Shown: one piece after another, positions 54,689 to 64,000 of the stretch
How the letters are laid out: each line of letters starts with the position of its first letter
How positions within the stretch are numbered: position 1 is the stretch's first letter
Source of the DNA: an uncultured Planctomycetaceae bacterium
Lineage (GTDB): Bacteria > Planctomycetota > Planctomycetia > Isosphaerales > Isosphaeraceae
DNA length: 64,000 bases
Reading direction: 5' to 3'
NCBI GenBank assembly: GCA_963833985.1
Contig: CAWIAD010000002.1
Location: forward strand, 5,152,001-5,216,000
Notes under the pieces: generated by a model
Databases searched by the model: none
What the model was told of the DNA's origin: nothing
The model's input: only the letters and a program-made list of their open reading frames with translations
Program-made: the position numbers and the translations under genes

Positions 54689-54905
54689 TGCCCCATGGAA
54701 CCGGGCGAAACCATCACTCTACCCGATTTTCGCCGCCAGCGTTGGCCTCGGTGCGGAATCCGCATGAGTGCGACCGTCAGCCCGCCGACATCCGGGAGCG
54801 GAGCACGGCTTTCCCGAACCGGATTGCCCGAATAGACGATCGGCGATAGGGTTCGGGGGTTGGTGTCGCGGACGCGGGGACCAGGAAGGTTCCGGGGAGC
54901 TCGGG

Positions 54906-56751
54906 ATGCACGGAGGAACGGTGCGGGTGATCCGCTCGATGAACGGTCGCTGGTGGCCGGAGCTCGTGGCCGCGGTGCTCGCGGTGGGGATCTTCCTGGG
55001 GTTTCTGGGCACACTGGAGTTCTGGGGCAAGCGTGAGCAGCGGGCGGCGGCGGAGACGCTCGATACGCTCGATCAGAAGCACTGGCTGGTGGCCGAGATC
55101 CAGGGGCGGCCCCGACTGGAAAAACCGCCGTTGCCGCGGTGGACGACCGCCGCGCTCATGGCCCTCTCCGGCCGGCGTGACGAGTGGATCGTCCGGCTGC
55201 CGGGCGCCTGCGCGGGGCTGGCCACGGTGGTGCTGCTCTACCTGCTGGGAACGCGCATGGGCGGACGCGGACTGGGGCTGGCCAGCTCCATCATCCTCGG
55301 CAGCATGTGGCTGTTCATCGCCGAGCTGCGGCAGGCCGGCAACGACGGACCGCTGGCACTCTGCACCACGCTCGCACTGCACGCCGCCTGGTGCCAGCTT
55401 CACGGCAAGCCGCGCGGCGGCGCCGGCGTGGCGGAAACGCCCGCAGCCAGTTCGTCGCCATCGCGTCTTGGGGCCCTGGTCTTCTACCTGGCGCTCGGGC
55501 TCGGCTTCCTGTGCAAGGGGCCGATCATCCTGCTCGTCGTCGGGCTGACGCTGGTTCCCTACCGGATCCTCTCCGGGCAGGCGGGCGCGGGCCTGCGCAG
55601 CCTGGCCGACCTGCGAGGGCTGCTCCTCTTCCTCGGCCTGGCGCTTTGCTGGCCGCTGCCGGTGCTGCTTCGCGATCCTCATGCCCTGGGCGTGTGGGCG
55701 TTGGAGATCGGCCAGAAGACTGGCATGCTGCCGATTGTCCACCAGGGCCGTACCGTGCTCGGACTGTCACTGCCGGTTCTTGTGATGCCCTGGCCGGTGC
55801 CGGTCCTGAGCGGAGTGGTGCTTGCCTTGCTGCCACGCCGCGGAGTCTGCCTGCCGTGGCCGCGAGGCGATCTGGTTTCCCTGGTGCTGGGCGGTTGTGA
55901 ACCTGGCGGTATTCAGCACCTGGGCGGTCGCCAAGCCCAACTATTACCTGCCGTGTCTGCCAGGAGCGGCGCTGCTGGCGGGAATGGCCTGGATCCGCCT
56001 GAGCCGTGCGGCGCGCGCCACCGAGCGGCCAGTGATGGCGAAGACCGCTCTGGCGTTGCTGGGTGGCCAGTGGGTCATGATCCTGGCGGCCGGGACCCTG
56101 GCCCCGCTCCTGAGCGGCCATTCCCTGGGCGGGTTGCTGCCGGTCGCCCTCGCGGTGGTGATGGGTTCGGCCGCCTGCGCGGTCGCTGCCAGCGGGGTAC
56201 TCTGGCGGCGGGGCAAGGACGAGTTGGCGCTACTGCCAGTCCTGGCGGCCAGCGCGGTCGGGGTGCTGGTGGGCTACGGGATGCTGGCCCCTGCGGACAA
56301 CCCCGCACGCGGGCATCGCACGCTGGCGCGCGAGCTGGAGCGGCGGGTGCCGGCCAACGTGGGAACCATCCACTTCTTCCATGAGATCGACAAGGGGTTG
56401 TGGTTCTATCTGGACAGGCTCAGGCTTGCGCCCGTGCCGGGGAGCCAGCCCCGCTACAGCGAAAGCTATGACCGCATCGGTGGCCTGCTGAGCGCACCGC
56501 TGGCGTTCGACGCCCCGGCCGACCCGACCCTGCGGCGCGCCGACCGGCAAATGGCGGGGCTGGTGGACTGGCTGAAACTCCACGGTCCGGAACGACCCTA
56601 CCTGGTCCTCCGGAGCGCACTGTATGCCCGCATGGCACCTGATCTGGGCGGCAGAACCACGCTGCTCTACCAGGAGGACGGCATGAAGCGAAACACCTTG
56701 ACCTTGCTCCAGATCCACCCTTTGCAGGAAACCGGCGCACCGACCCGGTGA
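54906..56751 (+). CDS. ArnT-family (GT83/GT39-like) membrane glycosyltransferase; frameshift near 55862
   Basis: 'PRLEKPPLPRW', 'EWIVRLP', 'GFLCKGP', 'KPNYYLPCLP'. Confidence 0.8.
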
Positions 56752-57199
56752 ATCTTGCGGCCTGAAGCGGTTCGGCCGTTGGAAAGCAGCATGCCGGTGG
56801 CGTGAAGCCTGGCGGTCAGCGAAAGCACGGCATGCCAGAAATGCGGTTTGCGCCGATTGTGCGGGCCAATCATGTTATGCATTTTCTCTATTTTGCCCGA
56901 CCCTGACGACCGTCAGGATTTCCGACGTAAAGTGTTGGTACAAAACGTGAAACGAATTCAAGAGGCGGCCATTGGGGGACGATACAACGAGTGGCTCGCC
57001 ATGGAACACCACGGCGAGAACTCGGGAGCACCAAGTTGTGTGGTATCGACCGGCGGGGAGACGGCAACGTCTCGGGTCCCGGGAAGACCTGAACCAAAGG
57101 CTTGATGCCATGGACGATCGACAAGAAACAGGGTCGAGCGAAACGGCCGGCCGGAATCGCTACCCTCGATCAAACGTTAGCCAAGGAGAGTATTCTCCC

Positions 57200-57781
57200 A
57201 TGTTGAAGCCCTTGACGTTGAGCCTCAGCCTTGCCGTCGCCCTTGGGTTTTGCAGCGTGAGCATGGCAGGCGGTCATGACGGTTGTACCACCTGTGGTCT
57301 GGCCTCCCCGCAGGGCGGCCCGATGGCCAGTGCTCAGGGTCCGATCGCAACGGGTTGCGAGACCCCCTGCGCGCCCAAGAAGCACCACTTCGCCGATTTC
57401 TGCTGCAAGCTGAAGTCGGCTCTTCATCCCCCGGTCTGCTACGAGTGGGTCCTGAAGAAGAAGAAGATGTGGGGCCACCACAACAACTCCGGCTGTGAGA
57501 CCTGCGGCGCCGCTGGTGCTCCGGTCTATGCGACCGGCCAGGTTGCTCCCTCCGGCCAGGGCGGCTACGCCGCTCCGTCGGGCCAGGGTGGCTATGCCGC
57601 TCCTCAGGCCGCGCCGATCTACGGTGCTGGCCAGCACGCCTACCAGACGATGCGTCCTTCCACGACGATCGCGTCGGTTCCCGCCGAGATGACCCCGGCT
57701 GTCGCTGGCGACGAAGCTCCCCCGGCCCCGGAAGTTCGCGAGACCAGCGGCCTGCTGCTGCCGACCCCCTCGGGCAACTGA
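57200..57781 (+). CDS. Secreted Cys/Gly/Pro-rich protein with SxQ repeats
   Basis: AAGGAG RBS; signal peptide; CTTC, CETPC, CC, CETC; ASPQ/ASAQ/ATGQ/PSGQ motifs; 27-bp duplication at 57545-57598. Confidence 0.7.
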   Translation: MLKPLTLSLSLAVALGFCSVSMAGGHDGCTTCGLASPQGGPMASAQGPIATGCETPCAPKKHHFADFCCKLKSALHPPVCYEWVLKKKKMWGHHNNSGCETCGAAGAPVYATGQVAPSGQGGYAAPSGQGGYAAPQAAPIYGAGQHAYQTMRPSTTIASVPAEMTPAVAGDEAPPAPEVRETSGLLLPTPSGN

Positions 57782-57983: not shown

Positions 57984-58026
57984 ACGGTCTCCGCAAAGCC
58001 TCGGCCTTGCGGAGACCGTTCGCTTT
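57984..58026 (+). terminator. Strong hairpin, probable terminator
   Basis: Perfect 13-bp inverted repeat acggtctccgcaa / ttgcggagaccgt followed by tcgcttt. Confidence 0.5.
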
Positions 58027-58395
58027 GGGTGAACACCGCTGCCCCCTGCCGCCGGATGCGGTTGACAGATGAGCCCCCTTATGCGTAACTCTTGCACCGC
58101 AAGAAGCGCCGGACCATGCACCCAGGGATGGGCATGCCGGAGTGGACCAGGATCGACGCGTGTGCCGGCCTCGTCGCCGTGACGGGCCCGAATGGGCGCA
58201 TCCTCGTCTCTGGGGGCGACGCTCGGGTCGCACACAGGGTCGTCCTTTCCTGGCCGTTCCCAGTCGCCGTCCCCGTGTGTGCATCGGTCTCCCGGTGACC
58301 ACGCACACAACTGGCTCGGCCACCGCGCTCAGGGTCCTGGTGAGCTGCCCTCCCTGAGGCAGGTGGAGCGGAGGCGGACGCCCGGAGGATGGTTG

Positions 58396-60071
58396 ATGGC
58401 GAGATTTGCCTGGTTGACGTCCGGTCCAGGCCTCAACAGTCTTGGCCCGCGCCTGGAGAGCTTGCGCCGGCGGGCGGCAGCGCGCAGTCCGGCTGTCCGC
58501 TGGGCGCGGCCGCCTTGTGTACCGTGGCTCTGGGACTGGCGGTGTACCTGAGCAGCGTGGCTCTTTCCACGGGGTCCAGCGTCTATCTTGGCTCCGGGCG
58601 GCGGTTCAGCCCGGAGGACCTCAGCAAGATCTCGCGCGGACTCGATCACCAGCGCCTGACCTACCGCATCGACGACCAGAGGCGGGTGGCCGTGGCAGCG
58701 GAGCAGCTCGAGCTGGCCGGTACCGCAATCAGCAAGCTCGAGCTCGGACCGAGGCCGCCGGGAGAGATTCGCGACGACCAGTCGGCCGCGTCAAGCGTCT
58801 GGGAATCGATCCACGACAAGGAGCTTCGCGAGTTCCAGGGCCGGGAGAAGATCCTCGAGTCCCTGATTGGCGACCTGCCCGGGATCGTCGGCTCGTTCGT
58901 CTGGATCAACCGGACAAAACCGCGATGGGGCCTTCAGCAGGCCGTCAAGCCGTCGGCGTTTGTCCGGCTGGAGACCGAGGGCGATCGCCAGTTGCCCTTC
59001 CGCACCGTGCAGACGCTGAGCACCATCCTGACCCGCACCGAACCGGGTCTCACCGCTGATGCGGTCACGGTCGTGGATCGCCGGGGACATACGTACCTCG
59101 ATGCTGGCAACCCGGCCCTGAGCGCGCTCTCGCATAACCGGGCGCGTGAGGAAGAGCTGAGCCAGCAGATCCTCGAGCAGCTCGACTGGATTGGCGGCGT
59201 GCGCGTCTCTGTCCAGCTTGCCGAGACGACGCGGCCGGGAACGAGCACGGTGGAGACCAGGCCCGCGGAACGGCGCCCTTCACCCGATGGGAAACCGGTT
59301 CAGAGCGCCCTTGAGCCGCCCCGCGGAGAACCGCCGTCACGGTGGAAGCCGGCCTCGGGAAGCGGACCGGAGACCAGAACTCTGGCCCCCGCCGTGGCGG
59401 TGAACCGGCCGCTGACACTCGACCCGGAGTTTCCGGCACCGGTGCCAGCACCACCGTGTGGGGCCGGCGTCACCTCGGCGACGTCGCAGCCGGCCGCGGT
59501 CCCTGCGGCAGACACTGGCCCGCCGACGATACCTCGACCCGGCGCCCGCGAGCTCACCGGCGACACCGGCGTCGTCTGGGTGCGCGTGCCGCGCAGCTAT
59601 TATTACAAGGCCGGCATCGCACTGAACCGCAGGGAACCTTCTCTGGACGAGTTTCAGAAGCTGGTCGCTCGCACCGAGGAGCAGATCAGGACCGGCATCG
59701 GGCTGGTGGTCAACCTGTCCGGGCCGCTGTCCTGGACCGCCAAGATCGACATGATCTCCGACGACGTCCCGCTGGACGCTCCGGCCGCAGTGGCGTCCCC
59801 CAGGGCAAGCCGGCGCGTCTCGATGGAATGGGCCGTCGCCGGAGCGCTCGGGGCCGTGGCAGTGGTGATGGCGGCCATCGGATCGTGGGTCCTGAGCACC
59901 CGGAGGCCGGCGCTCGCACCGGCAGCGGCCCCGCGCAACCTGCGTTTCCACGACGCATCCGCCTTCTCTCCGGGCCCCTCGGAACGGCTTCGGGAATTCG
60001 TCCGCCGGAACCCCGAGTCGGCCGTCAGCGTGCTCGAGCGCTGGACGAGCCAGGGAGGCACAGCCTCATGA
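58396..60071 (+). CDS. fliF: Divergent FliF-like M-ring protein; probable frameshift near 58506
   Basis: GGAGG then ATG at 58396 (MARFAWL...VRWA), joining ORF 58389-60071 at TM1. Ring motifs 'PSAFVRLE...EPGLTADAVTVVDRRG'; TM2; C-terminal 'LREFVRRNPESAVSVLERW'; lies next to fliG. Confidence 0.75.
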
Positions 60072-60688
60072 TCCGTACAACCTCTTCGGCGGCAGATGCG
60101 AAGCACGACCCGGCTGCCCCGGCGGCACTCCAGACGCCGGGCTCGCCGGTCCCGCCTCCGCATGACGATGGCCCGCCCGGCGCGACCATCGCCCCCTTGC
60201 GCAAGGCGGCGATTGTGCTCGTGAGCCTGGACCAGTCGCTGGCGTCCCAGTTGCTGGCACAGCTCGACCGCTCATCGGTGGAGGCGGTCACCTGGGAGAT
60301 CGCCCGGCTGGAGCGGATTGATCCGCAGGAGCAGTCGGCCGTCCTGGATGAGTTCCTGGGGCTGGGCCTGCGCCGGCTCTGCTTCGTCTTTGACGACCTG
60401 CTCCGCCTGGGCAACCCGGACATTCGCGGGGCCTATCATCAGGAAGACATCACCACCTGGGCGCTGGCTCTTGCCGGCGCGGCCCCGCTGGTGCGGGCCA
60501 AGGTGCTGCGCTCGCTCGACGCCGCCGACTCCGCGGCCCTGGAGCGTTGCCTGGAGGGCCTTGGTCCGTTCCGGCTCTCCGACGCCGAGGCCGCCCAGGC
60601 CGAGATCGCCGAGCGATTTCGCCGCCTTCACGACCGGGGCCTGATCGCCCTGCCCGACCCGAGCGGGCGTGAAGCCGTGCTGGTCTGA
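60068..60688 (+). CDS. fliG: Short FliG-like protein (N and C domains only)
   Basis: 'LRKAAIVLVSL...EIARL...AVLDEF' joined directly to 'FVFDDL...LGPFRLSDAEAAQAEI...RRL..RGLI'; 206 aa; ATGA overlap with fliF. Confidence 0.8.
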   Translation: MIRTTSSAADAKHDPAAPAALQTPGSPVPPPHDDGPPGATIAPLRKAAIVLVSLDQSLASQLLAQLDRSSVEAVTWEIARLERIDPQEQSAVLDEFLGLGLRRLCFVFDDLLRLGNPDIRGAYHQEDITTWALALAGAAPLVRAKVLRSLDAADSAALERCLEGLGPFRLSDAEAAQAEIAERFRRLHDRGLIALPDPSGREAVLV

Positions 60689-60746
60689 TGCGGCGAGCGG
60701 CAAGAACCATCCATCGGCTGCTCGACGCGACGCCGGAGACCCGGAC

Positions 60747-61229
60747 ATGAAGACCACTTGCCGCATGCAAGCTCGAAGCCTGCCGCTGTGCTCCGCTCTG
60801 CTGGCGGCTCTGCTGGCGGGCGTGCCGGCCTCCGCGGAACAGGAGCCTTTGCGCGTACCAGGGCCGTCGAGCCGGCTCGTCGGGCGCGACGGGTCCGCCT
60901 CGTCCCGGGGAACGGCTCCCCCCGCAAGCAGCGCGACGGGATGGTGGCTCGGCTCGGCGGGAATCACCCTCGTTCTGGCGGTCTGCGGGGCCCTCTGCGT
61001 GGCGGCGCGGAGGTACTTGCCACAGGCGCCTTCCGGATCGCTACGGGTCGTCGGCCGCGTCAGCCTGTCGCCCCGGCATTCCATTTACATGGTGCGGGCC
61101 GGTGAGCGGGTCTGGCTCATTGGCACCGGCAGCCAGGGTGCGCCCACCCTGCTGGGCGAGCTGACCGCGGAGGCCGCCACGCCCCGCGCGGCGACCGGGC
61201 TCGACGTCCGTCTGGGAGAGGAAGAATGA
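60747..61229 (+). CDS. fliO: FliO-like export-gate assembly protein
   Basis: TM helix then 'LRVVGRVSLSPRHSIYMVRAGERVWLIG...LLGEL'; directly before fliP. Confidence 0.8.
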   Translation: MKTTCRMQARSLPLCSALLAALLAGVPASAEQEPLRVPGPSSRLVGRDGSASSRGTAPPASSATGWWLGSAGITLVLAVCGALCVAARRYLPQAPSGSLRVVGRVSLSPRHSIYMVRAGERVWLIGTGSQGAPTLLGELTAEAATPRAATGLDVRLGEEE

Positions 61230-62146
61230 AGCGCTCCCGGCACGACAGACTGCCTCGAATCGCGGCCGCCCTGCTATGGCCACTGCTCTTGCTGGCGCTG
61301 GGAGCAGCGCCCTCCGGCGAGGCCGCGGCCCCGGCGGGCGCCCACCGCGAAGCAGTCGCCCTGCTCCCGGGCGCGGCCTTCGGCTCCGGCGCCGGCTCGG
61401 ATGCAAGCGTCTTCCGCGCGGGGGACGCTCCAGCACGGGACCTCGCGCCTGGCGGCAAGCCGCCCATTCCCGACCCGCGCGACGCCATGCGCGTCATGCC
61501 GACGATGCTCCTCTATGGGCTGATCTGGCTGGCCCCGATGGCGGCGATGATGGTCACCGCGTTCGTGCGGATCAACATCGTTCTGGTGCTCTTGCGGCAG
61601 GCCCTGGGCAGCCCGCAGATCCCGGGGAACCAGGTGCTCATGGTGCTGTCGCTGCTGCTGACCGCCCTGGTAATGCGGCCAGTGGGCGAGCAAGTCTACA
61701 CGCGAGCGATCGTTCCGTACATGGCGGGGCAGGCCACTCCGGCGCAGGCCTGGTCCGCGGGCTCAACTCCGCTCAAGACCTTCATGGTCGACCAGATCAT
61801 CAGGACCAACCACCAGGACCATCTCTGGGCGCTTTACCGTTACGCGGTGCCCTACAGTCCGGGCCAGGTTGATCCTCAGTATGCCGACGAGTTCCCTTTC
61901 CGGGTGGTGGCGCCGGCTTACATGCTCAGCGAGCTCACCACAGCGCTGGTGATCGGCTTTTATATTTACCTGCCGTTTCTGGTGATCGACCTCGTGGTCT
62001 CGGCGGTGCTGGCGGCCATGGGCTTGTACATGCTGCCGCCGTCGCTCGTGGCTATCCCGATCAAGCTGATGGCCTTCGTGCTGGCCGACGGCTGGCTGCT
62101 GGTAGCGTCGAAGCTGCTCTCAACCTTCGCCGTCGGTGGGACCTAG
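61226..62146 (+). CDS. fliP: Export gate protein FliP (SctR)
   Basis: 'TAFVRINIVLVLLRQALG..QIPGNQVL', 'PAYMLSEL', 'YLPFLVIDLVV', 'FVLADGW'. Confidence 0.95.
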   Translation: MKRSRHDRLPRIAAALLWPLLLLALGAAPSGEAAAPAGAHREAVALLPGAAFGSGAGSDASVFRAGDAPARDLAPGGKPPIPDPRDAMRVMPTMLLYGLIWLAPMAAMMVTAFVRINIVLVLLRQALGSPQIPGNQVLMVLSLLLTALVMRPVGEQVYTRAIVPYMAGQATPAQAWSAGSTPLKTFMVDQIIRTNHQDHLWALYRYAVPYSPGQVDPQYADEFPFRVVAPAYMLSELTTALVIGFYIYLPFLVIDLVVSAVLAAMGLYMLPPSLVAIPIKLMAFVLADGWLLVASKLLSTFAVGGT

Positions 62147-62180
62147 GACAGCCAGGAAAGGAAGGAGGGCCGCCCTGGAC

Positions 62181-62441
62181 ATGAATCATGCGATCGACTG
62201 GTCTCGCGAAGCCCTGCGGATGGCGCTGTTTCTTGGCGGTCCGCTGCTGGCTGTCGCCCTGCTTGCGGGGCTGGTGATCAACATCCTGCAAACCGTCACC
62301 CAGTTGCATGAGCCGGTGGTGGGGCTTGTCCCGCGGCTGGTGGCCGTGCTGCTGGTCTTGCTGGCGATCCTTCCCTGGCTGATCGGCCGCTGGGTCAGCT
62401 TCACCGTCGAGATGATCGGCTCGATTCCCGATTTGTTATGA
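62181..62441 (+). CDS. fliQ: Export gate protein FliQ (SctS)
   Basis: 'GPLLAVALLAGLVINILQTVTQLHE...VPRL...LPW'. Confidence 0.9.
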   Translation: MNHAIDWSREALRMALFLGGPLLAVALLAGLVINILQTVTQLHEPVVGLVPRLVAVLLVLLAILPWLIGRWVSFTVEMIGSIPDLL

Positions 62442-62451
62442 AACACAGGCA

Positions 62452-63222
62452 ATGGCCGTTGACGTGGATTCCATCAACTCCATCTGGATTGAAGCCCATG
62501 CTCCGGTCTGGGCCCTGGTGATCGCGCGTGTGGGCGCGGCCTGCATGACGGCGCCCGTGACCGCGGCTCCGGGGCTCGGCTGGCCCATGCGCCTTGTGCT
62601 TTCCCTCATGCTGGGCGTGGTGGTGATTCCGGTGCTGGAGCCCTCGATCGGGGCGGTTCCGGGCGGACCGATACTGCTCTGGCTGTGCGTGATGGAGCTG
62701 CTCGCGGGGGGGTTGCTGGGATTGACGGCGGGCCTCATCGTGGCGGCCGCGCGGCAGGCCGGCGACCTCGTTGCGGCCCAGGCGGGGCTCTCGGCCTCGA
62801 CGCTGTTCGATCCCGAGACTGGCGAGGAGCTCACGCCCCTGGGCCACCTCTACGGCCTGATCGCGCTGGCCGTGTTCCTGGCCATGGACGGTCCGCTGGT
62901 GCTGGTGGGAACCGTGGTGGAGAGCTACCGCTCCGTTCCTGCGGGCGGCTTTCGGCTTGACGCGAACACGGCGTCGGAGCTCTTCGCCCACCTCGGCGGC
63001 GCGCTGGCCCTTTCGCTCCGCGCCGCCGCGCCCGTCGCCGTCTCGCTGGTCGCGGCCGGAATCGTGCTCGGCTGGATTGGTCGGCTGGCGCCGGCGGTGC
63101 CTCTTCTGGCCCTGTCGCTCCCCGTCCGATCGCTGCTGGGGATCCTCCTTGTCCTTCTGAGCCTGACCACATTGGCCGCGACGTTTGCCCAGGCGTGGTC
63201 CGGCTGGCCCTGGGGACCATGA
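62452..63222 (+). CDS. fliR: Export gate protein FliR (SctT)
   Basis: 'ELLAGGLLG...AGDLVAAQAGLS...FDP', 'FLAMDG', 'ESY', 'AAPV', 'GRLAP'. Confidence 0.9.
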   Translation: MAVDVDSINSIWIEAHAPVWALVIARVGAACMTAPVTAAPGLGWPMRLVLSLMLGVVVIPVLEPSIGAVPGGPILLWLCVMELLAGGLLGLTAGLIVAAARQAGDLVAAQAGLSASTLFDPETGEELTPLGHLYGLIALAVFLAMDGPLVLVGTVVESYRSVPAGGFRLDANTASELFAHLGGALALSLRAAAPVAVSLVAAGIVLGWIGRLAPAVPLLALSLPVRSLLGILLVLLSLTTLAATFAQAWSGWPWGP

Positions 63223-63254
63223 GAACCGTGGTCGATCACAACTGAGGCCGTCTC

Positions 63255-64000
63255 ATGTCCGAGGATCGAACTCAGCCCGCCTCGAAGCGCCGCTTGCAGA
63301 TGGCACGCGAGCAGGGCCAGGTGCCGCACAGTCCCGAGCTCACGGCCGCCGGCGGCTGGCTGGTTGCGCTGCTGGTGCTGGGTTTCTGGGGCCAGGACCT
63401 GATGGCGGGCCTGGTCGGCCTGGTGCGGCAATCGGCCGGCCCGGAGCGCGCGATCCTGTCCGATGCCGACTCGCTGGTGACGCACGTGCACGCGGCCGCA
63501 CTGGCGGTTGCGGTGCCACTGGGCCTCGTCGGGATAGGATTCGCGGCCGGAGCGCTGGCCACCCACCAGATGCAGGTCCGCGGGCTCTGGGCCGTGGGAC
63601 TGGTCGCTCCCGATTTCAGCCGACTCTGGGCCGTGGGCCGGGGCGCTGGATCGAGCGCAGGAGTCGAGCGATTTGCCTGGGCGGCGGTCAAGGCCGTGGT
63701 GCTCGTGGGTGTTTCCTGCTGGGTAATGAGCGCGGAATGGACCGCGATCCAGCGGCTTGGGTCCTTGAAGTTCCCCGCCCTGGCGATTGCGGCAGGTCGT
63801 CTACTGATCCGGCCGGTTCAGGTGCTCGGGGGAGCGATGCTGGTTCTGGGCCTGTGCGACTTCGGCCTGCGCCACTTCCGTTACGAGGCGATGCTGCGGA
63901 CGACGCCGGAAGAGCAGCGTGAGGACCTGAGGGTGATGGAGGGCGATCCTTCCCTGCGAGCCAGGCGCAGGCGCATGGCCCGGGCCTGGCGGGGCGACGC
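63255..64000 (+). CDS. flhB: Export switch protein FlhB (SctU), truncated by the window edge
   Basis: 'MSEDRTQPASKRRLQMAREQGQVPHSPEL' and 'LRTTPEEQREDLRVMEGDPSLRARRRR'; frame open to 64000. Confidence 0.9.
   Translation, partial: MSEDRTQPASKRRLQMAREQGQVPHSPELTAAGGWLVALLVLGFWGQDLMAGLVGLVRQSAGPERAILSDADSLVTHVHAAALAVAVPLGLVGIGFAAGALATHQMQVRGLWAVGLVAPDFSRLWAVGRGAGSSAGVERFAWAAVKAVVLVGVSCWVMSAEWTAIQRLGSLKFPALAIAAGRLLIRPVQVLGGAMLVLGLCDFGLRHFRYEAMLRTTPEEQREDLRVMEGDPSLRARRRRMARAWRGD

What the first reader, a model, noticed from the sequence alone, without database searches (positions are those of the whole stretch)
58396..64000. Minimal flagellar-type export operon: candidate non-flagellar type III export machine in a planctomycete
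Seen: tightly coupled fliF-fliG-fliO-fliP-fliQ-fliR-flhB, with ATGA overlaps at fliF/fliG and fliO/fliP. There is no fliE upstream and only about 60 bp between fliG and fliO. Known: in typical flagellar loci fliE precedes fliF and fliH-I-J-K-L-M-N lie between fliG and fliO; described Isosphaeraceae are not flagellated swimmers; a FliO/P/Q/R/FlhB/FlhA 'core' has been proposed, controversially, to serve non-flagellar roles such as nanotube formation in Bacillus subtilis. Inference: this is a repurposed membrane ring plus export gate, neither a flagellum nor a classical injectisome. The gate genes are intact, which argues against simple decay.
Basis: partly seen in the sequence, partly recalled or inferred. 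Interest (0 to 1): 0.82.

Follow-up and report, generated by a model that had tools for sequence, protein, structure and literature searches.

The report
Flagellum-less export gate switching on sigma-28
A family of non-swimming planctomycete bacteria has lost the flagellum but kept, under selection, its membrane export gate and the sigma-28/FlgM regulator pair; the gate likely works as a switch that pumps the inhibitor FlgM out of the cytoplasm to turn on predicted cell-envelope genes.

Summary
Confirmed, and larger than reported. The operon fliF-fliG-fliO-fliP-fliQ-fliR-flhB continues past the window into flhA-flhF-fliA. fliF and flhF each carry a small frameshift in this assembly, probably sequencing error. 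Among 47 high-quality family genomes, FliP and FlhA are in 47; flagellin, rod/hook domains and FliK are in 0; FliI reaches its cut-off in 0 of 121. All kept genes have dN/dS below 1. The parts are flagellar by descent, not injectisome. Motor and hook features are stripped (FliG torque helix, FliF collar domain, FlhB cleavage motif) while FlhA's charged residues are intact. The only known flagellar export substrate found is FlgM: 37 of 37 family genomes, dN/dS 0.08. It is full-length where a native gate persists and cut to its C-terminal half in 14 of 14 gate-less genomes read. A sigma-28-type promoter is conserved before flgM, fliA and several envelope genes. Other planctomycete lineages made the same reduction independently, usually truncating FlhB, which in Salmonella helps lock the gate into FlgM export. 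Best reading (0.5): an ATPase-free, PMF-driven FlgM exporter used as a regulatory switch. Export itself is not shown.

The parts
56956..56986 (+). Predicted sigma-28 (FliA) promoter, TCAAG-N16-GACGATA type, 244 bp before the Cys-rich gene
   Evidence: Matrix trained on flgM promoters scores it 16.5; a site scoring 14 or more sits before the orthologue in 13 of 19 loci
57200..57781 (+). 193-aa Cys/Gly-rich protein with a hydrophobic N-terminus, unknown family; predicted sigma-28 target, usually just upstream of fliF
   Evidence: No Pfam hit; homologues in 22 of 41 loci; dN/dS 0.23; atlas hits unnamed
57984..58019 (+). G+C-rich inverted repeat between the Cys-rich gene and fliF; possible terminator, untested
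   Evidence: Seen in sequence
58396..60071 (+). fliF, MS-ring protein; RBM1-RBM2 and C-terminal FliG-binding helix kept, collar region replaced by a Pro-rich stretch; one base missing near 58501-58508 in this assembly
   Evidence: YscJ_FliF 34 of 34 family members, YscJ_FliF_C 0 of 34; best PDB hits are FliF; indel
60068..60688 (+). fliG, 206 aa, N and C domains with most of the middle domain lost; torque-helix charges replaced
   Evidence: Pfam, NCBIfam, alignment
60747..61229 (+). fliO, gate assembly chaperone
   Evidence: Pfam FliO E 1.4e-7
61226..62146 (+). fliP, export pore; Met gasket reads LYM instead of MMM
   Evidence: Pfam; MMM in 0 of 40 family copies, 9 of 12 native flagellar copies
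62181..62441 (+). fliQ
   Evidence: Pfam Bac_export_3; scores higher to FliQ than SctS
62452..63222 (+). fliR
   Evidence: Pfam Bac_export_1; scores higher to FliR than SctT
63255..64000 (+). flhB, first 248 of 345 codons (ends at L001:10293); NPTH autocleavage motif replaced. Beyond the window the locus goes on with flhA (L001:10683-12926, intact), flhF (L001:12930-14095, split in this assembly) and fliA (L001:14699-15475); flgM lies at G000:C2:2555896-2556177

Best explanation
This is the inner-membrane remnant of the ancestral planctomycete flagellum (MS ring, short FliG, FliOPQR, FlhB, FlhA, FlhF), kept without rod, hook, filament, stator or ATPase, and it likely serves as a low-flux, proton-driven exporter of the anti-sigma factor FlgM that would free sigma-28 (FliA) to switch on envelope genes. 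Shown: gene content, family-wide retention, purifying selection, flagellar ancestry, loss of motor and hook features, conserved full-length FlgM, and a conserved sigma-28-type motif before flgM, fliA and three envelope or exported-protein genes. Inferred: the ring and gate assemble, probably placed by FlhF; FlhA drives export by proton flow; FlgM goes into the periplasm; freed FliA raises its own and FlgM's transcription, making a feedback switch; gate assembly or membrane potential is the input.
For: FliP 47 of 47 and FlhA 47 of 47 high-quality family genomes against flagellin 0 of 47, rod/hook domain 0 of 47, FliK 0 of 47 and FliI 0 of 121 at cut-off. FlgM in 36 of 36 relatives plus this genome, dN/dS 0.08, residues 1-20 83% identical across 24 family copies against 47% across 16 flagellated copies. 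The D-x-V-x-I-S segment is in 24 of 24 family, 12 of 12 other reduced-gate and 16 of 16 flagellated FlgMs, but 0 of 14 FlgM-like proteins from gate-less genomes. FlhA membrane charged residues are kept in 23 or 24 of 24 rows, one row being partial. Of 13 FlhBs from reduced gates outside the family, none keeps NPT and 10 stop at 220-286 aa. In Salmonella, loss of that domain plus Flk in a rod-hook-less strain gives FliK-independent FlgM export to the periplasm (PMC13344023), and export can run without FliHIJ (PMC4230889). A flgM-trained promoter matrix independently finds sites before fliA (25 of 26) but not before fliF (0 of 35), fliP (0 of 40) or flhA (0 of 24). Complex prediction FlhA cytoplasmic domain with FlgM: 0.55 against best control 0.00, weak support; run contact agreement at least 67%, partner pLDDT at least 56; the mark was reached by 116 of 157 solved and 2 of 215 mismatched pairs, but at 0.60 or under by 18 solved and both mismatches.
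Against: No export was measured. Most family FlhBs (27 of 37 loci with a call are over 320 aa) keep an uncleavable C-terminal domain, and in Salmonella uncleavable FlhB(N269A) blocks late export; the domain is however only 21% identical to flagellar ones and is cut off in 5 loci. FliA is kept at 73-78% identity in 5 of 5 gate-less genomes, so sigma-28 does not need a gate in other planctomycetes, and FliA/FlgM pairs persist without any gate in some Legionella (PMC5655016). The segment lost from gate-less FlgM is partly sigma-binding (recalled), so its loss is not purely loss of an export signal; four gate-less copies keep an N-terminus loosely like flagellated FlgM; the 14 come from only three families. 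The FliP Met gasket is changed (first Met 3 of 40) although it is 99% conserved elsewhere (PMC8239009), which could mean impaired export. In three loci of one genus fliF and fliG are not within 6 kb upstream of fliP, and I did not search those genomes for them. ATPase-free export in Salmonella needed raised PMF or excess substrate.
Confidence: 0.5

Rival explanations
1. The gate mainly exports other cargo, such as sigma-28-dependent surface proteins without a Sec signal, with FlgM export as a coupled checkpoint or not at all.
For: Proteins with an N-terminal LE-x-R-x-LL type motif (family name LEPRxLL recalled; my own regular expression) are enriched among genes with a sigma-28 site in this genome: 5 of 54 against 72 of 8477, odds ratio 12, p 1e-4. 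A distant locus holds a FliG-like and a FliM/SctQ-like gene (the latter in 37 of 47 genomes), which could form a sorting platform. Three reduced gates elsewhere keep FliI.
Against: No conduit across the outer membrane is linked: no rod, no L/P rings, and the three secretins lie far away, two of them of type II/pilus kind. No ATPase, FliH or chaperones. 49 of 54 motif proteins have no sigma-28 site. The FliM/SctQ-like gene was not found in 10 of 47 genomes.
Confidence: 0.17
2. The gate no longer translocates anything; FlhA binds and holds or inactivates FlgM at the membrane, so the complex regulates sigma-28 without export.
For: Uncleavable FlhB and altered Met gasket could close the pore; FlgM is reported to be inactivated, not exported, in Helicobacter pylori (cited in PMC5655016); the weak FlhA-FlgM complex score fits docking equally; the unusually fixed FlgM N-terminus fits a binding surface.
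Against: It does not explain selection on the pore genes fliP, fliQ, fliR and the chaperone fliO (dN/dS 0.17-0.34) or on FlhA's membrane charged residues.
Confidence: 0.15
3. The complex is a membrane scaffold or polar landmark, like the Bacillus CORE proposed for nanotubes, or an aid to pili or budding; FliA and FlgM are kept for separate reasons.
For: All six CORE genes are present. CORE-type retention is reported in some non-flagellated bacteria (PMC6456723) and remnant gate genes affect twitching in Lysobacter (PMC7277350). FlhF is kept, and FliA survives without a gate.
Against: CORE function did not need FliF but FliF and FliG are kept in 38 of 41 loci. It does not predict that full-length FlgM tracks the gate or the repeated FlhB truncation.
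Confidence: 0.13
4. A slowly decaying flagellar relic, or the gate of a flagellum whose other genes were missed.
For: fliF and flhF are frameshifted in this assembly; family branches are long; tblastn from flagellated relatives missed even FliF, FliG, FliO and FliQ here; one flagellin and one rod/hook hit occur among 121 genomes and were not followed up.
Against: Retention in 47 of 47, all dN/dS pairs below 0.68. Profile searches that did recover FliG, FliO, FliQ, FliR, FlhB and FliN found no rod, hook, filament, FliK, FliL or FlbD. Similar small deletions hit unrelated genes in this assembly. Described members have no flagella (PMC5352709, PMC3072084).
Confidence: 0.05

Closest known systems
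Flagellar type III export apparatus and FlgM/FliA checkpoint (Salmonella); closest state is the engineered rod-hook-less, flk-less, FlhB-CCD-less strain of PMC13344023
   Same: FliF, FliG, FliO, FliP, FliQ, FliR, FlhA, FlhB, FliA, FlgM; sigma-28 promoter before flgM; no rod or hook; FliK not needed
   Different: Natural and family-wide; also lacks FliH/I/J, stator and FliG middle domain; most copies keep an uncleavable FlhB C-terminal domain; targets are envelope genes, not flagellin
Remnant flagellar export genes of Lysobacter enzymogenes OH11 (PMC7277350)
   Same: Non-flagellated bacterium keeping flhA, flhB, fliP, fliQ, fliR with a non-flagellar role
   Different: OH11 keeps the FliI ATPase; that paper does not mention FliF, FliA or FlgM (0 occurrences); here FliI is absent and the FliA/FlgM pair is central
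Bacillus subtilis CORE (FliO/P/Q/R, FlhB, FlhA) for nanotubes (PMC6456723)
   Same: Same six membrane proteins, no need for ATPase or filament
   Different: CORE is a second job of a full flagellum and did not need FliF; here FliF, FliG, FlhF, FliA and FlgM are co-retained; no nanotube evidence
Orphan FliA/FlgM of non-flagellated Legionella oakridgensis (PMC5655016)
   Same: Sigma-28 and anti-sigma kept after loss of the flagellum; flgM is sigma-28-dependent
   Different: No basal body or gate there; here the gate is kept. Gate-less planctomycetes (short FlgM) resemble this case more
Secretin-less Myxococcales type III systems (PMC3459982)
   Same: Type III export core lacking some core injectisome genes, once taken for a relic
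   Different: Those are Sct-type and basal to injectisomes; this one is nested in planctomycete flagellar sequences and carries FlhF/FliA/FlgM

Membership tests
Bacterial flagellum | Export gate FliP/Q/R, FlhA, FlhB of flagellar type | tested here: met
   Each scores higher to the flagellar than the Sct model, though below equivalog cut-offs; nested in native planctomycete flagellar FliPQR
Bacterial flagellum | Rod, hook, junction, filament | tested here: not met
   0 of 47 for flagellin and Flg_bbr_C; local profiles negative
Bacterial flagellum | MotA/MotB stator and FliG torque helix | tested here: not met
   MotB plug 0 of 5; only weak MotA/MotB-like hits; torque-helix charges lost
Bacterial flagellum | FliH/I/J ATPase complex | tested here: not met
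   FliI 0 of 121 at cut-off, best 237 of 379.5 bits; FliH 0 of 5; FliJ none with a two-sequence profile
Bacterial flagellum | FliK ruler and FlhB NPT(H/E) autocleavage | tested here: not met
   FliK 0 of 60; NPT in 0 of 37 family loci with a FlhB call, 15 of 15 flagellated
Bacterial flagellum | C ring with FliM/FliN | tested here: inconclusive
   One FliM/SctQ-like gene at a distant locus in 37 of 47 genomes; operon FliG lacks most of the FliM-binding middle domain
Injectisome (non-flagellar type III system) | Sct-type gate, SctN ATPase, linked secretin, needle | tested here: not met
   Gate is flagellar; no ATPase; secretins are unlinked; needle genes not searched
FlgM/FliA partner switch | FliA-family sigma, FlgM anti-sigma, sigma-28 promoter before flgM | tested here: met
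FlgM/FliA partner switch | FlgM removed by export through the gate | not testable with these tools
   Only co-variation and a weak complex score
Nanotube CORE | FliO/P/Q/R, FlhB, FlhA present | tested here: met
Nanotube CORE | Membrane tubes that depend on these genes | not testable with these tools
   Needs imaging of mutants

The most novel reading that the evidence does not exclude
A type III secretion machine whose only job is signalling: planctomycetes have several times independently pared the flagellum down to a ring and gate locked in late mode, which reads gate assembly or membrane potential and exports FlgM to run a sigma-28 envelope programme. In Isosphaeraceae a second FliG-like/FliM-like pair encoded beside response regulators may gate it.
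Probability: 0.35. Interest if true: 0.92.

Novelty: new variant of a known kind. Interest (0 to 1): 0.8.

Why it matters
It would be a natural minimal type III exporter: no ATPase, ruler, rod or cleavable FlhB. That makes two open questions testable: what the smallest working gate is, and whether removing or crippling the FlhB C-terminal domain is what puts the gate in late mode. It shows a motility checkpoint reused as a general regulator, explains flagellar remnants in non-swimming planctomycetes, and gives a predicted sigma-28 regulon (TolC-like channel, ExbB/TolQ-like protein, exported proteins) in bacteria whose envelope biology is poorly understood.

Tried and rejected
RNA evidence: no RNA holder was listed; no evidence either way, and no reads were available to test the two frameshifts. 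A FliE hit from a two-sequence profile was an artefact of nine weak repeats in a kinase-type protein. A FlgI-like gene (C2:342081-344177, 699 aa) is far below cut-off and unlinked; FliI-like hits are taken as F1 ATPase subunits (far below cut-off, present in 14 of 14 controls); MotA/MotB-like hits are weak. tblastn alone was too insensitive and was replaced by profile searches. The PilB-like ATPase after flgM is in only 7 of 23 flgM loci, some too short to show it, so I do not claim a pilus regulon. Genome-wide promoter enrichment is modest: 77 genes against a permuted-matrix mean of 35 and maximum of 73; same strand 16 against opposite 5 at score 18, 44 against 32 at score 14. So the regulon claim rests on footprinting, not on the genome scan. 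The fliA-upstream site was found in 1 of 5 gate-less and 2 of 2 other reduced-gate genomes: too few to use. The alignment of the 339-aa protein found no PDB sequence match; the wide fold search could not be run. An injectisome origin was rejected.
Full report
OBSERVATION. The overlaps and the 58-bp fliG-fliO gap are real. The window is G000:C2:5152001-5216000 of a 10.2-Mb, two-contig genome, 96% complete. Beyond the window come the end of flhB, flhA, flhF and fliA. fliF lacks one base near 58501-58508 against two close relatives and flhF is split by a small deletion. Unrelated genes show the same kind of split, so I read these as assembly errors; no reads were available to prove it.

WHAT IS KEPT AND WHAT IS LOST. 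Of 121 family genomes, 109 have FliP, including 47 of 47 high-quality ones, nearly always as one copy. FlhA is in 60 of 60. Flagellin is in 0 of 47 (2 of 121 at E 0.001, one above cut-off), the rod/hook domain in 0 of 47 (1 of 121), FliK in 0 of 60, and FliI reaches cut-off in 0 of 121. MotB plug, FliE and FliH are each in 0 of 5 near-complete genomes. Profiles built from flagellated planctomycetes and run on all six frames of this genome recovered FliG, FliO, FliQ, FliR, FlhB and FliN but missed FliF (two sequences only), and found no rod, hook, junction, filament, FliK, FliL or FlbD apart from one weak FlgG-profile hit (E 5e-4) outside any matching gene; profiles with one to four members are weak. 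I read 41 loci (this one and 40 of the 108 FliP-positive relatives, chosen for long contigs): fliP, fliQ, fliR in 41, fliO and flhB in 40, fliF and fliG in 38, all seven in 37. A flhG-like gene occurs in 15 loci but not beside flhF here.

SELECTION. Within-genus Nei-Gojobori dN/dS medians (pairs with dS 0.1-2; 8-50 pairs per gene; one saturated pair dropped): FliF 0.42, FliG 0.18, FliO 0.34, FliP 0.25, FliQ 0.17, FliR 0.28, FlhB 0.33, FlhA 0.19, FlhF 0.27, FlhG 0.12, FliA 0.04, FlgM 0.08; no pair above 0.68. Pairs are not independent and high G+C biases the estimate, but decay is not supported.

ANCESTRY. Every gate protein scores higher to the flagellar than to the injectisome model. A FastTree tree of FliP+FliQ+FliR (21 family, 36 other sequences, rooted on two SctR loci) makes the family one clade (support 1.0) inside the native planctomycete flagellar sequences. 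The three secretins of this genome lie far from the gate; two carry type II or pilus marks.

ANATOMY. FliF keeps RBM1-2 (34 of 34) and the C-terminal helix that binds FliG, but the collar-bearing C-terminal family is undetected (0 of 34). FliG has lost most of its middle domain and the charged torque-helix residues (their role is recalled). FlhA keeps its membrane charged residues in 23-24 of 24 rows and the G(Y/F) of the GYXLI motif in 24 of 24 (Salmonella numbering recalled). FlhB has no NPT motif in any of 37 loci with a call, against 15 of 15 flagellated loci, and ends at or just after the site in 5. Its C-terminal domain, where kept, is 42% identical within the family and 21% to flagellar copies. 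The FliP gasket is MMM in 0 of 40. So motor and hook functions are gone and the proton-driven engine looks intact.

THE SUBSTRATE. FlgM is at C2:2555896-2556177 (94 aa) and in 36 of 36 sampled relatives. Its first 20 residues are 83% identical across 24 copies. Across 151 genomes of the class, 76 have flagellin and 123 have FliP. I read FlgM from 12 reduced-gate genomes outside the family, 16 flagellated, 14 gate-less and 6 with an apparently re-acquired flagellum; these are subsets of the hits. The first two groups are all full-length with the D-x-V-x-I-S segment; the last two have it in 0 of 14 and 0 of 6 and match only the C-terminal half. Gate-less genomes keep FliA (5 of 5), which cuts both ways: sigma-28 has a wider role, but the long FlgM goes when the native gate goes.

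CONVERGENCE. Thirteen flagellin-less, FliP-positive genomes lie outside the family. One is an SctR locus and one still has hook genes. Ten tested lack the rod/hook domain; one of five tested keeps the ATPase domain and two more show fliI in the locus. Reduced gates fall in at least three places outside the family's clade. None of 13 of their FlhBs keeps NPT and 10 stop at 220-286 aa. PMC13344023 (abstract and passages) shows that in Salmonella removing that domain and Flk in a rod-hook-less strain gives FliK-independent FlgM export to the periplasm, that early substrates are then not exported, and that uncleavable FlhB(N269A) cannot switch. The first point matches the truncated lineages; the last is the main difficulty for Isosphaeraceae, most of which keep an uncleavable but much changed domain.

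OUTPUT. All 24 family flgM genes have a T(A/C)AA-N16/17-(G/T)(C/T)CGAT-like site 188-255 bp upstream (this is the training set). The matrix then found sites scoring 14 or more before fliA in 25 of 26 loci and before the Cys-rich gene at window 57200 in 13 of 19, but in 0 of 35 fliF, 0 of 33 fliO, 0 of 40 fliP, 0 of 38 flhB, 0 of 24 flhA, 0 of 25 flhF and 0 of 13 flhG. Two top candidates from the genome scan were footprinted in their 29 closest orthologues: a TolC-like outer-membrane protein had the site in 27 of 29 and an ExbB/TolQ-like protein in 20 of 28 (one dropped for short flank), with 0 on the reverse strand. That FliA reads this motif is inferred from its likeness to known sigma-28 promoters (recalled). 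The gate operon is outside the regulon, as in the flagellar hierarchy.

MECHANISM. Shown: content, conservation, ancestry, residue losses, FlgM co-variation, promoter footprints. Inferred: assembly, FlhF placement, PMF-driven FlgM export, release of FliA, feedback. ATPase-free export is possible in Salmonella but needed raised PMF or more substrate (PMC4230889, passages); a 94-aa, largely unfolded substrate at low flux is the easy case (inference). The FlhA-FlgM complex prediction gave weak support only: 0.55 against 0.00, contact agreement at least 67%, partner pLDDT at least 56. Odds: export switch 0.5, other cargo 0.17, docking without export 0.15, scaffold 0.13, relic 0.05.

LITERATURE. 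Nine searches were run. None listed a paper describing this system in planctomycetes; the library lacks most subscription papers. PMC5352709 (passages) says only that flagellar genes are poorly represented and members make no swarmers; PMC3072084 (passages) reports pili and no flagella; PMC4334474 (passages) adds nothing. PMC6456723, PMC3459982, PMC7277350, PMC8239009, PMC5655016 and the FliO preprint 10.1101/2025.05.06.652439 were read as passages. Supplements were not read; Table S2 of PMC6456723 and the FliO preprint's data may list planctomycete genomes.

VERDICT. A real, selected, flagellum-derived export gate coupled to a FliA/FlgM pair; not a flagellum and not an injectisome by membership tests. 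New variant of a known kind; interest 0.8.

Noticed in passing
G000:C2:3115533-3117858 (-); L133:8534-10859: A 339-aa FliG-like gene (model pLDDT 74; top ten Foldseek rows all flagellar C-ring/FliG, E 0.01-0.3; atlas neighbours in Myxococcota and Chlamydiota) overlaps a 439-aa FliM/SctQ-like gene, directly behind response-regulator and kinase genes in most of 21 loci. Possible signal input or sorting platform.
   Followed up: partly
L046, L049, L053, L057-L059, L071, L075 and others, just after fliG: A second ORF of about 102 aa resembling FliG_C lies between fliG and fliO in about a third of family loci; absent in this genome.
   Followed up: no
L081:10175-11806, L088:4362-6365: Reduced gates in other families appear to fuse FliF to a FliG C-terminal domain.
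   Followed up: no
L093/L100, L094/L114 (G230, G146); also G140, G221: Genomes with a native reduced gate plus a second flagellar cluster of a different clade, as if the flagellum was lost and re-acquired while the old gate stayed.
   Followed up: partly
L092 (G158), L091 (G224): Non-flagellar type III loci in planctomycetes, with four CesT-family chaperones in L092.
   Followed up: no
L169-L188: Gate-less and re-flagellated genomes of three families keep a short FlgM-like protein with a new, often basic N-terminus, and those tested keep FliA: perhaps a different way to control sigma-28.
   Followed up: partly
L250:941-4177: flgM sits directly behind an mlaD-like gene (with mlaE before it where the locus reaches) in nearly all 23 family loci read.
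   Followed up: no
window 54768-56751: An ArnT/PMT-like glycosyltransferase gene is split over two frames here but mostly one frame in relatives; one of several small indels in this assembly.
   Followed up: partly
window 58062-58091: TTGACA followed 18 bp later by TAACTC upstream of fliF: possible housekeeping promoter; untested.
   Followed up: no
L033 (G070), L035 (G019): One flagellin and one rod/hook-domain hit in two incomplete family genomes; contamination or transfer not checked.
   Followed up: no
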